DNA of 64,000 bases. Origin: a virus (lineage: Duplodnaviria > Caudoviricetes). The stretch covers positions 32,001-96,000 of the IMG/VR virus record IMGVR_UViG_3300021256_000056. One strand, 5' to 3'. Within the stretch, counting starts at the first letter, position 1. Every line of letters begins with the position of its first letter. The position numbers and the translations under genes are program-made. Below are positions 10,102 through 27,289 of this stretch, one piece after another. Under the pieces are notes generated by a model, which ran no database searches, was not told the origin of the DNA, and saw only the letters and a list, made by a program, of their open reading frames with translations.

Positions 10102-10216
10102 TCGGGGAAGAAGGAATCGAACCTCCGCTAACGGCACCCAAAGCAATTTGACGCTGCTGTTAGTTTTCAATACTGAAAACATTTAAAACGTCGTGCTACC
10201 ACTACACTATTCCCCA
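10102..10216 (-). tRNA. tRNA-Pro(UGG) with 44-nt ACAGCA-module insert at 29/30 (10145-10188)
   Basis: Removing the insert gives acggc-tttgggt-gccgt; G72/A73 Pro identity. Confidence 0.8.
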
Positions 10217-10223
10217 AAATTTG

Positions 10224-10340
10224 TGAGGAGGATGGGACTCGGACCCATGACCCACGGGTTAAAAGCCAAGGTGAGGTTGCTGTTAGTTTTCAGTACAGAA
10301 AACGTTTTATACGTTGCTCTACCAACTGAGCTACCTCCTC
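10224..10340 (-). tRNA. tRNA-Lys(UUU) with 44-nt ACAGCAA-module insert at 29/30 (10268-10311)
   Basis: Removing the insert gives acggg-cttttaa-cccgt. Confidence 0.82.
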
Positions 10341-11010: not shown

Positions 11011-11018
11011 ATATTGTG

Positions 11019-11421
11019 TGGAGATGGGCGGACTCGAACCGCCGTTTTTCAAGCTTGCAAACTGCTTTCTACGCGCTTAGTTTTCTTTATGATTCGTTGG
11101 GCACTGGTGGAAAACACACCTGAGTACTCAATATATCATTCTGGAAACGTAGCCAAACCAGACGAATGAAACTGGCCTGCCGCTCTCGATTTGATGATGC
11201 CCTCATATTGTGAATTCAACCAAGACCAAACATTCACGAGGACAATCGTCCCGACACATCCTAGGTGCCGATGGATTAGGCTTATTTGCTTAGCAAATTA
11301 AGCGGCGATTGCATAGGTGTTGTTGCCAACTAATTTTTTTGATATTTGTTTAAAGGCTAAAAATCAAAACGCCTGCGTGCTTACAATCCTCATAGATTGA
11401 AATCAAAACCAAAACATCCCC
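11019..11421 (-). ncRNA. ssrA: tmRNA, tag GNNTYAIAA
   Basis: 5' ggggatg, 3' ggcggttcgagtccgcccatctcca, internal ggcaacaacacctatgcaatcgccgcttaa. Confidence 0.93.
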
Positions 11422-15520: not shown

Positions 15521-15665
15521 AATAAGAGCATTATGAAGTCTCGAGCCTTCATAAATTGTTACTTAGCGTGCTCGTCCATCTTTACACTATTCCCGTTAAG
15601 AGTCCTTCCTTTTCACGTTGCCTAGAACTTTTCCGAAAAGAGAACTCACCTCTAAGTATCTCTTG

Positions 15666-15748
15666 TGGGCAGGGAGGGATTCGAACCCCCGAAGCCGTGA
15701 GGCAGCAGATTTACAGTCTGCCCGTTTTGACCGCTTACCTACCTACCC
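15666..15748 (-). tRNA. tRNA-Tyr(GUA)
   Basis: Cloverleaf with V arm, loop ctgtaaa. Confidence 0.92.
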
Positions 15749-15880: not shown

Positions 15881-15947
15881 GGGAAACATTTTTACGTATG
15901 TTCAGAAAGAAAGTCGGAATTTTAGTAAATTTTGCTGTTAGTTTCCC
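15881..15947 (-). ncRNA. stand-alone ACAGCAA module with Glu(UUC)-like anticodon stem-loop
   Basis: gggaaac-ta-ACAGCAA...ttccga-ctttctt-tctgaa...gtttccc. Confidence 0.7.
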
Positions 15948-15952
15948 TTTAG

Positions 15953-16074
15953 AGCTGATGCAAGGAATCGAACCTCGGTCTGCGGCTTGGAATGCATTTC
16001 TTGATTTTTGCTGTCCGTAACCTTGTCAGAATACCTTATTTGAAAACGCTGTGCTACCACTACACCACATCAGC
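15953..16074 (-). tRNA. tRNA-Gly(UCC) with 51-nt ACAGCAA-module insert at 29/30 (15996-16046)
   Basis: Removing the insert gives gcggc-attccaa-gccgc. Confidence 0.8.
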
Positions 16075-17232: not shown

Positions 17233-17572
17233 GTTTCTCACCTAAGACTAACGCGCTAATCTGTCATTCGCAATGCACTAGGTGTATAACTTTTTTTATA
17301 CGTGCAGTTCTAACCCCCTTCGTGACCCCTCAGTGCTACTATAGTCGCCCTATATTTGGATTACTGACGATACCCTACACCTACTCATCACGCCATTTAA
17401 CCGTGGCTCTCTCGCATTGTTCCAATCTACGAGAGGCCCCCCCACGGTGAGGCCGTTAGTCGGATTTGACTTGAGCAAGAAGTCTGAATTGAACAGCAAG
17501 TTCCGTCCTTACGTAGCGAACAAGGGACGGACGTCTCCCGAACCTGGGTATCTTGCTAAAAAATGTGTAACC

Positions 17573-17706
17573 AGAAATCAGAAATGTTTTACTCTACCTA
17601 CTGAGCTACATGGGAAGAATACCGTAACTCCCACGGAGGGACTCGAACCCTCGTCCTTAGTTTTACAGACTTACAAACAATTAATGAACTTGCTGTAAGA
17701 TTTCTT
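17573..17706 (-). ncRNA. circularly permuted tRNA(GUA)-like RNA closed by ACAGCAA module
   Basis: Order: module, ctgtaaa loop, T arm, loop-closed acceptor (cgtggga/tcccatg), D arm, module 3' strand. Confidence 0.78.
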
Positions 17707-17732
17707 CACGTTACACGGTGATGGTATTTTTG

Positions 17733-18122: not shown

Positions 18123-18236
18123 CGGGAAGCGTTTTACGTCCAACGGACGGGGGCGGACTTGAACCGCCGAACCTCTCAAGTTCTGATTTTCAGTCGGAAT
18201 TGTTAAACCTTTGTTGAGATTGCTGTGTGCTTCCCT
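18123..18236 (-). ncRNA. ACAGCAA module enclosing Phe(GAA) anticodon arm and T arm
   Basis: gggaagc-ac-ACAGCAA...ttccga-ctgaaaa-tcagaa...ggcggttcaagtccgcc...gcttccc. Confidence 0.75.
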
Positions 18237-19216: not shown

Positions 19217-19281
19217 GGAAATCTGTTTTTCAGAATATTAGATTAAAAGTCTAGTCCTTGATAAATTGCTGTAAGATTTCC
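19217..19281 (-). ncRNA. stand-alone ACAGCAA module with Lys(UUU) anticodon stem-loop
   Basis: ggaaatct-t-ACAGCAA...taga-cttttaa-tcta...agatttcc. Confidence 0.78.
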
Positions 19282-21395: not shown

Positions 21396-21462
21396 GGAAA
21401 ACTTTTTGTTAAAATTCGAAGTTTGGAATCGGATTTGGTCTAATATTTGCTGTCGGTTTTCC
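21396..21462 (-). ncRNA. stand-alone ACAGCAA module with Trp/Gly-like loop
   Basis: ggaaaac-cg-ACAGCAA...cga-ttccaaa-cttcg...gttttcc. Confidence 0.65.
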
Positions 21463-22137: not shown

Positions 22138-22154
22138 GTTTTTCGTAAATTTTG

Positions 22155-22226
22155 TGCTCCATACAGGAATCGAACCCGTCTAAGAACGTTTTAGGGACGC
22201 CCGCTCGGCCACTGAGCCAATGGAGC
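22155..22226 (-). tRNA. tRNA with CUA anticodon (amber suppressor candidate)
   Basis: gctccat/atggagc acceptor; ggcgt-ccCTAaa-acgtt; C33. Confidence 0.65.
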
Positions 22227-22234
22227 AGAAAGAC

Positions 22235-22295
22235 AGGAAACATTAAAATCAACATTATCAGTGTTTATTTGACGAAAGGTTGCTGTGTGTTTCCT
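22235..22295 (-). ncRNA. stand-alone ACAGCAA module with Ile(GAU) anticodon stem-loop
   Basis: aggaaaca-c-ACAGCAA...aaca-ctgataa-tgtt...tgtttcct. Confidence 0.78.
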
Positions 22296-23567: not shown

Positions 23568-23625
23568 GGAAAACTTTTTTGTGACGCAGTATTATCAGTA
23601 CTTCCAAAATTGCTGTAAGTTTTCC
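23568..23625 (-). ncRNA. stand-alone ACAGCAA module with Ile(GAU) anticodon stem-loop
   Basis: ggaaaactt-ACAGCAA...agta-ctgataa-tact...aagttttcc. Confidence 0.78.
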
Positions 23626-26674: not shown

Positions 26675-27289
26675 TGGCCCAGGCGGGACTCGAACCCGCA
26701 CGGCCCTTGCGGGCCAGCAGATTTTCTTACCACTATAGCTTTCACTACCTAAACAACTTCGAACAATCGGGTTGGATTTTCAAGGCTTTATACCCCCAGG
26801 TTGTATAGTTTGTGGTCTGGACTGTATCTTAACCATATTGAAATCTTGCAAGTGTCATACGCATAGTAAACTATAAACATTATAGGTGGAGTCTCTCAGG
26901 TTCCGCTCTTCCTATAAGAGGCTATAGTCTGTTGCCGTAATTCTATTTCAACTTAGGCTCCTCCTGTATCTCGTCTCTACACACATACGTTGCGGGGATG
27001 TCCCGAAAACAAGGCTACTTGCTGCCCTCTGCTACCTTATTAGGGTAGATAGCGTTGCAATTACTTGTTCGTACTTGGCTCGGTATTACCAACAGCGTTA
27101 ATTTTCTCCACTCCATAGAATTCAACTCATTGGCAGTAATCTTCCAATGCTTCACATCTACTTCAACGCTTCCTTGAATTTTAACCTGCTAAGGTTTCAC
27201 CGAATTAGGGAGGTTCTACATCTCTTGTTTCCAAGAGCGCACTCAAATTTTCATTAAGTCTGCCGCGTATACCATTCCGCCACTAGGCC
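26675..27289 (-). tRNA. tRNA-Leu(UAA) split by group I intron
   Basis: Exons 27256-27289 and 26675-26725 join to gcaga-cttaaaa-tctgc. Confidence 0.92.
26726..27255 (-). mobile_element. group I intron after U34
   Basis: U/G splice boundaries; shared core. Confidence 0.9.

What the first reader, a model, noticed from the sequence alone, without database searches (positions are those of the whole stretch)
17573..17706. Circularly permuted tRNA(GUA)-like RNA with YrlA-like topology
Seen: order is module 5' strand, anticodon loop ctgtaaa, T arm, acceptor stem closed by a loop, D arm, module 3' strand. This is the circular permutation of the 29/30-insert tRNAs. Established: bacterial YrlA Y RNAs have T arm before D arm, a closed acceptor and a terminal protein-binding stem. 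Inference: the same 3D architecture arose by two routes, and a closed acceptor implies a non-translational role unless it is processed.
Basis: partly seen in the sequence, partly recalled or inferred. Interest (0 to 1): 0.85.

Follow-up and report, generated by a model that had tools for sequence, protein, structure and literature searches.

The report
Phage tRNA look-alike with protein handle
This stretch of a giant gut-phage genome encodes a small RNA built like a tRNA written in rotated order, with its amino-acid-accepting end sealed shut, and it belongs to a widespread, apparently undescribed phage RNA family that travels with a ring protein shaped like the RNA-binding protein Ro60.

Summary
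On the minus strand, 17705-17573 reads: 7-nt clamp strand, UU, ACAGCAA, linker, CUGUAAA hairpin, T arm, 7-bp acceptor closed by a 13-nt loop, D arm, linker, clamp partner. An extra outer helix (17716-17710 / 17571-17565) and a U-run follow.

A covariance model built from nine other phages, without this copy, scores it 67 bits (E 1e-14), full length. The model finds 87 members in 0.93 Mb of phage DNA. 25 of 27 base pairs covary.

The Ro60-like protein DUF2828 is encoded in 35 of 47 records with such RNAs, against 1.4% of reference phages. Where both lie in one locus they share a strand (22/22), usually under 1 kb apart. The protein's model matches Ro60 over its full length.

The RNA fails the YrlA tests: 31 bits against 69, no GNCGAA motif, no TROVE gene.

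It is therefore most likely a Y-RNA-like tRNA mimic, not a working tRNA-Tyr. Two weak points remain. The anticodon stem of this copy is poor. No partner gene lies in the 195 kb held, about 53% of the genome.

The scan found this family before on other DNA. I found no published description of the RNA.

The parts
17710..17716 (-). Outer helix, 5' strand GUGUAAC. It is specific to this copy.
   Evidence: It pairs 7/7 with 17571-17565 in the MFE fold of 17720-17558. Outer helices are not a family feature: 16 of 61 members have one, against a control mean of 11.7.
17699..17705 (-). Clamp helix, 5' strand AGAAAUC
   Evidence: It pairs 7/7 with 17579-17573. Pair probabilities are 0.72-0.99. All 7 clamp pairs covary in the family.
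17690..17698 (-). UU plus the conserved ACAGCAA motif, the presumed protein-binding part of the handle
   Evidence: ACAGCAA occurs in 53 of 61 parsed members, ACAGCAT or ACAGCAG in the rest. The pattern scan required ACAGCA, so only the seventh base was free to vary. In the MFE of this copy the motif is paired with 17679-17670.
17674..17689 (-). Linker 1 (16 nt). Its 3' end UGUUU could pair with AAACA at 17589-17585.
   Evidence: Read from the sequence. The helix gains no energy in the model: -22.0 kcal/mol with it, -22.5 without.
17657..17673 (-). Anticodon-like hairpin UAAGU-CUGUAAA-ACUAA (GUA, the Tyr anticodon)
   Evidence: The loop is identical to the anticodon loop of the phage's own tRNA-Tyr at 15665-15748. 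The stem has 4 of 5 pairs with an A.A mismatch. Predicted pair probability is about 0.
17636..17656 (-). 4-nt variable region GGAC and the T arm
   Evidence: T-stem pair probabilities are 0.99-1.0. It matches the T arm of the Rfam YrlA, tRNA and tmRNA models.
17609..17635 (-). 7-bp acceptor stem closed by the 13-nt loop GUUACGGUAUUCU
   Evidence: It pairs 7/7 with probabilities 0.85-0.98. All 7 acceptor pairs covary in the family. The loop has no CCA. An alternative hairpin, CCGUGG with UUACGG, was flagged.
17590..17608 (-). U8 A9, the D arm and A26
   Evidence: D-stem pair probabilities are 0.86-0.90. G18 and G19 are present.
17580..17589 (-). Linker 2 (10 nt, AAACAUUUCU)
   Evidence: Its first two A cannot pair with positions 42-43. 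Most family members do form pairs 27-28 with 42-43.
17572..17579 (-). Clamp helix, 3' strand GAUUUCU, followed by G
   Evidence: It pairs 7/7 with 17705-17699. A G follows the clamp in 46 of 61 members.
17558..17571 (-). Outer helix, 3' strand GUUACAC, then AUUUUUU: a likely 3' end or terminator
   Evidence: Read from the sequence. The simple terminator scan does not call it, because the stem is long-range.

Best explanation
The element is a gene for a roughly 135-160-nt non-coding RNA of a widespread phage family. The family has two modules.

**The handle.** It is a 7-bp clamp helix formed by the two ends of the RNA, a single-stranded NN-ACAGCAA next to the 5' strand, and a G after the 3' strand.

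**The tRNA module.** It is a complete tRNA body written in rotated order. The acceptor is a closed hairpin. The chain opens near the top of the anticodon stem, and the handle branches off there.

**Proposed mechanism.**
- Inferred: the handle docks the RNA on the phage's Ro60-like ring protein (DUF2828 plus a vWA domain), as Y RNAs dock on Ro60.
- Inferred: the tRNA-shaped module with its free anticodon-type loop is then presented to, or competes for, factors that recognise tRNA. These could be processing or modifying enzymes, nucleases, or host defence proteins that target tRNA.
- Inferred: it does not decode in translation.

**What is shown.** The anatomy, family membership, family-wide covariation, genomic linkage of the family to DUF2828, and the Ro60-like fold of DUF2828.

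**What is not shown.** Transcription, binding, and the presence of the partner gene in this phage.
For: - A leave-one-out family model gives 67.2 bits, E 1e-14, full length. It is the best hit in the window.
- The model finds 87 hits at E<=1e-8 in 0.93 Mb of phage loci.
- Covariation is strong: 96.7% of cells are paired against 61.5% in shuffles, 25 of 27 pairs change on both sides, and the score is 0.871 against 0.204 in shuffles and at most 0.14 when slid.
- DUF2828 (PF11443) is found in 35 of 47 records holding such RNAs, and in 11 of 12 that are at least 90% complete. The twelfth is found with a profile at E 4e-119.
- The base rate is 710 of 50,697 reference phage records by tblastn.
- 22 of 61 members have the gene inside the fetched locus. 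All 22 are on the same strand and 17 lie within 1 kb.
- All five reference phages that I checked have handle RNAs within 0.5 kb of the gene: wV8, Bacillus vB_BcoS-136, mycobacteriophage OhShagHennessy, Listeria LMTA-94 and Lak-B5.
- The DUF2828 model (pLDDT 82.8) has Ro60 or Rsr chains as all of its best matches above the vWA-only hits, over about 545 columns, TM 0.42-0.61 (0.5-0.6 for most), E 1e-8 to 3e-6.

Evidence against translation:
- The family's acceptor loops include GNRA and UUCG tetraloops.
- Five members with perfect stems show Ser anticodons on bodies with a 5-nt variable region.
- This copy has a Tyr anticodon on a class I body with G73, no CCA and a mismatched stem.
- A normal class II tRNA-Tyr(GUA) sits at 15665-15748.

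From the literature: the Ro60-like gp130 of the Felix O1-like phage Bas63 counters the Ppl defence system, and its authors guessed that nearby 'tRNAs' might be Y RNAs (PMC11482910).
Against: - No DUF2828, DUF2828-like, TROVE or RtcB gene lies in the 195 kb held for this phage.
- In the related ~400-kb phages G017, G037 and G038, the Ro60-like gene and RtcB lie about 8-25 kb upstream of the array on the same strand. The matching place here holds 728-aa and 2946-aa ORFs.
- This copy departs from the family. Pairs 27-28 with 42-43 cannot form. The anticodon hairpin is predicted unstable. The MFE fold hides ACAGCAA in a hairpin.
- No ortholog was found, so the fold of this region could not be tested by comparison.
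- There are no expression or binding data.
Confidence: 0.7

Rival explanations
1. The closed acceptor is opened after transcription. RNase P cuts 5' of U1, the 3' side is trimmed and CCA is added, as for Mycobacterium smegmatis YrlA. This gives a two-piece tRNA-shaped RNA held together by the clamp. This reading is compatible with the Y-RNA-like role and differs only in the mature form.
For: The acceptor has 7 bp, the feature Chen et al. tie to RNase P cleavage of M. smegmatis YrlA, which also gains CCA in vivo. A U precedes position 1 here (read from the sequence). In the family, 6 of 61 acceptor loops begin N-CCA, and CCA occurs at no other loop offset.
Against: The loop here has no CCA. Eleven of 61 family loops are only 4 nt long, including stable GCAA, GAAA and UUCG, which looks like designed closure. 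The encoded CCA may be a leftover of the tRNA-gene ancestry.
Confidence: 0.25
2. It is a circularly permuted tRNA-Tyr gene. Its transcript is cut, re-joined or kept in two pieces, and then charged and used in translation, like the permuted tRNA genes of Cyanidioschyzon or Thermofilum, or two-piece tmRNA.
For: All parts of a tRNA are present with the elbow nucleotides intact. The anticodon loop CUGUAAA equals that of the phage's tRNA-Tyr. The element lies in a tRNA array.
Against: - The ends form a 7-bp clamp plus ACAGCAA, with 16-nt and 10-nt linkers and no bulge-helix-bulge.
- No splicing endonuclease or RtcB lies in the 195 kb.
- The body is class I with G73, whereas the phage's own tRNA-Tyr has a long variable arm.
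- The anticodon stem is mismatched.
- The Rfam tRNA model gives 15 bits against 29, and ARAGORN makes no call.
- Family members show Ser anticodons without a long variable arm.
Confidence: 0.06
3. It is a non-functional by-product: the junction left by recombination or deletion between tandem handle-bearing tRNA genes, now decaying.
For: The junction of the two tandem insert tRNAs at 10174-10292 already reads as a permuted unit (58.9 bits). This copy has a degraded anticodon stem, lacks pairs 27-28 with 42-43, and has no partner gene in the held sequence.
Against: The clamp, acceptor, T and D stems are all perfect. An extra outer helix and U-run frame it as its own transcription unit. It ranks mid-table among the 87 family members. 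The rotated body is at most 72% identical to any tRNA of the window, so it is not a recent rearrangement.
Confidence: 0.1
4. The handle is an intron-like or mobile RNA element of tRNA genes, and the permuted unit is a splicing substrate or product rather than a protein-docking RNA.
For: The same handle interrupts three tRNAs at 29/30. The array also holds HNH endonuclease ORFs. Earlier notes of this scan report a group I intron and another kind of tRNA insert in the array; I did not test either.
Against: Free-standing 58-67-nt handle RNAs with no tRNA exons are common in this window and beside DUF2828 genes. No ribozyme family matches. Linkage to the Ro60-like gene on the same strand is not expected of an intron.
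Confidence: 0.05

Closest known systems
YrlA, the tRNA-like Y RNA of bacteria and some mycobacteriophages, bound by Rsr/Ro60 (Rfam RF02553; Chen et al. 2014, PMC4201824)
   Same: - The order is (V), T arm, loop-closed acceptor, D arm, enclosed by a helix made of the two ends.
- The tRNA elbow nucleotides are kept.
- The gene lies beside, and on the same strand as, a ring protein with the Ro60 fold. This is a family-level feature.
- A 7-bp acceptor occurs, as in M. smegmatis YrlA.
   Different: - It scores 31.4 bits against a gathering score of 69.
- It has no GNCGAAN0-1G motif. The handle is a 7-bp clamp plus ACAGCAA.
- The partner family is DUF2828, not Pfam TROVE (0 of 47 records).
- An anticodon-type stem-loop is kept and the handle branches from the anticodon stem. 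In YrlA the anticodon stem is replaced by the protein-binding stem.
Handle-bearing 29/30-insert tRNAs and short handle RNAs of the same phage (window 10102-10340, 15953-16074, 15881-15947, 19217-19281 and others)
   Same: They share the clamp helix, NN-ACAGCAA and the 3' G. They have the same circular order of parts as the insert tRNAs.
   Different: - In the insert tRNAs the acceptor is open and the clamp is a local hairpin. Here the acceptor is closed and the clamp joins the ends.
- The opening is at 26/27 here, against 29/30.
- The short RNAs carry only an anticodon-like hairpin.
Circularly permuted tRNA genes (Cyanidioschyzon merolae, some green algae, Thermofilum pendens) and permuted two-piece tmRNA genes. 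This comparison rests on my own knowledge, not on a paper read here.
   Same: The 3' half is encoded before the 5' half, with a short sequence between acceptor 3' and 5' strands.
   Different: Those rely on a bulge-helix-bulge junction cut by the splicing endonuclease, or on RNase P and 3' processing, and they yield working tRNA or tmRNA. Here there is no such junction, no endonuclease, and the identity features do not fit the anticodon.
Class I RNAs of dictyostelid amoebae (Rfam RF01414; Kjellin et al. 2021, PMC7919456)
   Same: A short stem made of the two ends is followed by a conserved 11-nt motif. The conserved positions stated in the paper (T3, C6, C9, A10, A11) fit ..CUUACAGCAA as found here. 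That the motif itself reads CCUUACAGCAA is my recollection; the paper's text does not print it.
   Different: RF01414 does not hit this element. It gives only a sub-threshold 23.3 bits (gathering 41.5, E 0.88) on the short copy at 19231-19280. The payload here is a tRNA body, and the host range is entirely different.
Thermus phage phiLo Ro60 with Yrl1 and Yrl2 (PMC12135203)
   Same: A phage-encoded Ro60-type ring with phage-encoded partner RNAs next to its gene. It can form a complex with host PNPase.
   Different: phiLo Ro60 is TROVE-type, and its RNAs carry the CGAA motif in a stem-bulge-stem. They are not tRNA-shaped.

Membership tests
   67.2 bits, E 1.2e-14, model positions 1-119, at 17573-17705 minus. 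It is the top hit of the window and ranks 40th of 87.
   AGAAAUC pairs 7/7 with GAUUUCU. UU-ACAGCAA follows the 5' strand and G lies at 17572.
   T stem 5/5, acceptor 7/7, D stem 4/4. Pair probabilities are 0.85-1.0.
   45 of 61 members have 5/5 pairs, mostly split at 28/29 or 29/30. Here A27 and A28 cannot pair, and a contiguous hairpin gives 4/5 with an A.A mismatch. The model marks these pairs as non-standard.
   None in the 195 kb held, about 53% of the genome. It is present in 35 of 47 other records and in all 12 near-complete ones.
YrlA (Rfam RF02553) | Score at or above Rfam's gathering threshold of 69 bits | tested here: not met
   31.4 bits, E 5.7e-5 in a 501-nt search.
YrlA (Rfam RF02553) | GNCGAAN0-1G motif near the 5' end | tested here: not met
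   A regular-expression search finds none in 17720-17558.
YrlA (Rfam RF02553) | Within about 4 kb of a TROVE (Ro60/Rsr) gene on the same strand | tested here: not met
   No PF05731 match in the 195-kb record, nor in 47 records holding family members.
YrlA (Rfam RF02553) | tRNA-like domain in the order T, closed acceptor, D, with the tertiary-contact nucleotides | tested here: met
   U8, A14, G15:C48, G18 G19, U54 U55 C56 and A58 are read from the sequence.
tRNA (RF00005) / permuted tRNA genes | Recognised as a tRNA, with identity features that fit the anticodon | tested here: not met
   The tRNA model gives 15.3 bits against 29, and ARAGORN makes no call. A Tyr anticodon sits on a class I body with G73, while the phage's tRNA-Tyr is class II.
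tRNA (RF00005) / permuted tRNA genes | Bulge-helix-bulge junction and a splicing endonuclease or ligase | tested here: not met
   The junction is a 7-bp clamp with 16-nt and 10-nt linkers (read from the sequence). No PF01974 and no RtcB lie in the 195 kb. The record is incomplete.
Dictyostelium Class I RNA (RF01414) | Match to the Rfam model | tested here: not met
   No hit on this element at E<=5 to 10. A short sister copy at 19231-19280 reaches 23.3 bits against 41.5.

The most novel reading that the evidence does not exclude
The Ro60-like ring plus handle RNAs form a programmable display system. Each RNA presents a different tRNA anticodon loop, here Tyr GUA, on a tRNA-shaped or minimal scaffold. 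The loops would soak up or redirect host factors that attack or modify particular tRNAs, such as anticodon nucleases and other tRNA-targeting defences. The ring could also hand damaged tRNAs to nucleases or to RtcB. The phage could then change what it protects simply by swapping the loop.
Probability: 0.2. Interest if true: 0.9.

Novelty: new variant of a known kind. Interest (0 to 1): 0.7.

Why it matters
Y RNAs with a tRNA-like domain are known for TROVE-type Ro60, but what that domain does is still open. This element belongs to a second, larger and apparently undescribed set of partner RNAs for a different Ro60-shaped protein family, DUF2828.

The family occurs in hundreds of phages. These include easily handled ones: Felix O1-like coliphages, P100-like Listeria phages and cluster L-type mycobacteriophages. 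In one of them, Bas63, the protein has been reported to counter a bacterial defence system.

The RNAs keep a free anticodon-type loop. They come in three interconvertible forms: insert tRNA, permuted closed tRNA and minimal hairpin. That makes the role of tRNA mimicry directly testable.

It also matters for annotation. These genes are unannotated or are overlapped by spurious ORFs, and they can be mistaken for broken tRNAs.

Tried and rejected
- **TROVE/Ro60 (PF05731).** No match in the own record or in 47 family-bearing records. The partner is not a Pfam-detectable TROVE protein.
- **RtcB.** Absent from the own record and present in only 4 of 47 records, all huge gut phages. It is not a general partner.
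- **Splicing endonuclease.** Absent from the own record.
- **DUF2828 in the own record.** Three attempts failed: the Pfam model, the 557-aa homolog from G038, and a 14-sequence profile.
- **Close relatives and orthologs.**
  - blastn against reference phages hit only the neighbouring tRNA-Asn.
  - A search with the SprT-like protein found nothing.
  - Three exact-pattern scans for this copy in viral and metagenome contigs found nothing.
  - So the odd anticodon region could not be tested by comparison.
- **A recent tRNA ancestor in the window.** The best identity of the rotated body to any tRNA is 72%.
- **An outer helix as a family feature.** Not above control.
- **MAFFT alignment of 33 members.** It left the 3' clamp ragged. 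I rebuilt from 9 members of equal tail length.
- **Papers on the RNA family.** Searches for DUF2828, permuted tRNA with phage, ACAGCAA, and Ro-like with tRNA-like gave nothing. The supplements of Chen 2014 are not held.
- **Complex prediction.** Not used, because it takes no RNA.

Full report
**Setting.** The window is bases 32001-96000 of a 195-kb IMG/VR virus record, estimated about 53% complete. Its 794-aa ORF has full-length homologs at 42-49% identity (44-45% for the two single full-length matches) in three ~240-410-kb gut-phage records, G017, G037 and G038. Window 6-25 kb holds 35 tRNA genes and a tmRNA, all on the minus strand. HNH endonuclease ORFs are interspersed.

**The observation.** Read on the minus strand, 17705-17573 runs in this order:
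- AGAAAUC
- UU-ACAGCAA
- a 16-nt linker
- UAAGU-CUGUAAA-ACUAA
- GGAC
- a T arm
- acceptor 3' strand CGUGGGA
- a 13-nt loop
- acceptor 5' strand UCCCAUG
- UA
- a D arm
- A
- a 10-nt linker
- GAUUUCU

The two ends pair 7/7. A further helix (17716-17710 with 17571-17565) and AUUUUUU frame the unit.

The nucleotides that build the tRNA elbow are all present. In the thermodynamic ensemble the clamp, T arm, acceptor and D arm are near-certain.

The weak part is the 'anticodon' arm. Its loop equals that of the phage's own tRNA-Tyr. Its stem has 4 of 5 pairs with an A.A mismatch, its predicted probability is about zero, and the MFE fold pairs ACAGCAA with the linker instead.

ARAGORN does not call the element, and the Rfam tRNA model gives 15 bits. 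Rfam's YrlA model aligns along it at 31.4 bits, below the 69-bit threshold.

**A family, not a one-off.** The pattern was ACAGCA, a gap, a T loop, a gap, then a D-arm start. A script kept matches with at least 6 of 7 pairs in both the acceptor and a clamp, which left 61 distinct sequences.
- There are 45 different clamps and 60 different acceptors.
- 45 of 61 have a perfect 5-bp anticodon stem. It is built in two parts: positions 27-28 or 27-29 come from behind the D arm, and the rest from in front of the loop.
- The handle therefore branches off at 28/29 or 29/30.

I built a covariance model from nine of these members, without the window's copy.
- It scores the finding 67.2 bits, E 1e-14, end to end, as the best hit in the window.
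- It finds 87 hits at E<=1e-8 in 0.93 Mb.
- On that alignment 96.7% of cells pair, against 61.5% in shuffles.
- 25 of 27 pairs change on both sides.
- The covariation score is 0.871, against 0.204 in shuffles and at most 0.14 when partners are slid.
- The alignment is fitted to the model, which favours the structure. The margin over the slid controls is large all the same.

**Relation to the insert tRNAs.** The three insert tRNAs at 10102-10216, 10224-10340 and 15953-16074 carry the same clamp and ACAGCA at 29/30. The model's second-best hit in the window is 10174-10292 at 58.9 bits. It runs from the handle of one insert tRNA, through that tRNA's 3' half and a 7-nt spacer, into the 5' half and handle of the next. 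A tandem pair of insert tRNAs is a plausible source; that step is inference.

**The partner protein.**
- Pfam TROVE is absent from 47 records that hold family members.
- DUF2828 is present in 35 of them and in 11 of 12 near-complete ones. The twelfth, G017, is found with a profile at E 4e-119.
- By tblastn, 710 of 50,697 reference phage records (1.4%) hold a homolog.
- Within the fetched loci, 22 members have the gene nearby. All 22 are on the same strand, and 17 lie within 1 kb.
- All five reference phages that I opened have handle RNAs within 0.5 kb of the gene. Four of them have permuted tRNA-type members detected by the model.
- An AlphaFold model of one DUF2828 protein (pLDDT 82.8) has Ro60, Rsr and phage phiLo Ro60 as its best matches, over the whole length.
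- A sequence profile also ranks TROVE and Ro60 chains first, weakly.

Linkage and fold are thus shown. Binding is inferred.

**Why not a working tRNA.**
- Family acceptor loops are 4-22 nt and include GCAA, GAAA and UUCG.
- Five members with perfect stems show serine anticodons on bodies with a 5-nt variable region. SerRS needs the long arm; that is established knowledge.
- This copy shows a tyrosine anticodon on a class I body with G73 and no CCA, beside a normal class II tRNA-Tyr.
- No splicing endonuclease or RtcB lies in the held sequence.

One thing stays open. Six of 61 loops start N-CCA, and CCA occurs at no other offset. M. smegmatis YrlA, which also has a 7-bp acceptor, is cut by RNase P and gains CCA. 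Some members may therefore be opened.

**Comparison with the known.** Chen et al. 2014 define YrlA by three things: nearness to a TROVE gene, the GNCGAAN0-1G motif, and V, T, closed-acceptor and D stem-loops. This element shares only the last. It works like a YrlA but is not one.

The handle resembles the stem plus 11-nt motif of dictyostelid Class I RNAs. The Rfam model reaches only 23 bits, and only on a short sister copy.

Two papers touch the protein side. phiLo Ro60 is TROVE-type and binds CGAA-motif RNAs. Bas63 gp130 is Ro60-like, counters the Ppl defence system, and sits upstream of tRNA genes, which its authors guessed might include Y RNAs. I found no description of the RNA family.

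**Gaps specific to this copy.**
- The held 195 kb has no Ro60-like gene.
- In the relatives G017, G037 and G038 that gene and RtcB lie 8-25 kb upstream of the array on the same strand. The matching place here holds other ORFs.
- The anticodon arm is degenerate.
- No ortholog exists in the searchable collections.

**Verdict.** The element is a real, well-formed member of a widespread phage family of handle-tagged, circularly permuted tRNA mimics. It is most likely the RNA partner of a Ro60-like protein. Earlier notes of this scan reached the same family on other DNA. I re-tested their main claims here and they held.

Noticed in passing
window 10174-10292 (minus): The stretch from the handle of insert tRNA 10224-10340, across the 7-nt spacer, into insert tRNA 10102-10216 scores 58.9 bits as a permuted unit. 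The clamp strands of the two neighbours pair 7/7 and their acceptor strands 6/7. So the two tRNAs could fold either apart or across the junction.
   Followed up: partly
window 18124-18235 (minus): A handle RNA (GGGAAGC ... GCUUCCC) whose payload has a T arm and a short closed hairpin but no D arm. It looks like a half-way form between the minimal and the permuted types. The family model scores it 24 bits.
   Followed up: no
window 23568-23625, 22235-22295, 21396-21462, 19217-19281, 15881-15947 (minus): Five 58-67-nt handle RNAs with a 7-bp clamp, NN-ACAGCAA, an anticodon-like hairpin and a G after the clamp. Some are followed by a U-run.
   Followed up: partly
window 17622-17636 (minus): CCGUGG (end of the T stem plus the acceptor 3' strand) can pair with UUACGG inside the 13-nt acceptor loop. 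This is a competing hairpin that would open the acceptor stem.
   Followed up: no
L136 6362-6487 (E. coli phage wV8, NC_012749.1 about 26808-26933): A permuted tRNA-type handle RNA lies unannotated downstream of the DUF2828 gene gp47. It overlaps, on the opposite strand, the annotated hypothetical CDS gp048, which may not be a real gene.
   Followed up: partly
L141 6801-8012 (Listeria phage LMTA-94); G017, G037, G038, G040: An RtcB-type ligase gene lies 1.3 kb from the DUF2828 gene in the Listeria phage and 7-10 kb from it in G037, G038 and G040. In G017 it lies about 69 kb away. This recalls the bacterial rsr-yrlA-rtcBA operon. RtcB is present in only 4 of the 47 records.
   Followed up: partly
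61 family members in L002-L120: CCA occurs in the acceptor-closing loops only directly after the discriminator position (6 members), never at another offset. It is either a vestige of tRNA genes with encoded CCA or a sign of processing.
   Followed up: partly
window 22154-22226 (minus): A tRNA with anticodon CUA, which ARAGORN labels Pyl. It is a likely amber suppressor, as seen in phages that recode TAG.
   Followed up: no
window 11016-11421 (minus): A phage-encoded tmRNA (109.5 bits, tag GNNTYAIAA) lies in the middle of the tRNA array.
   Followed up: no
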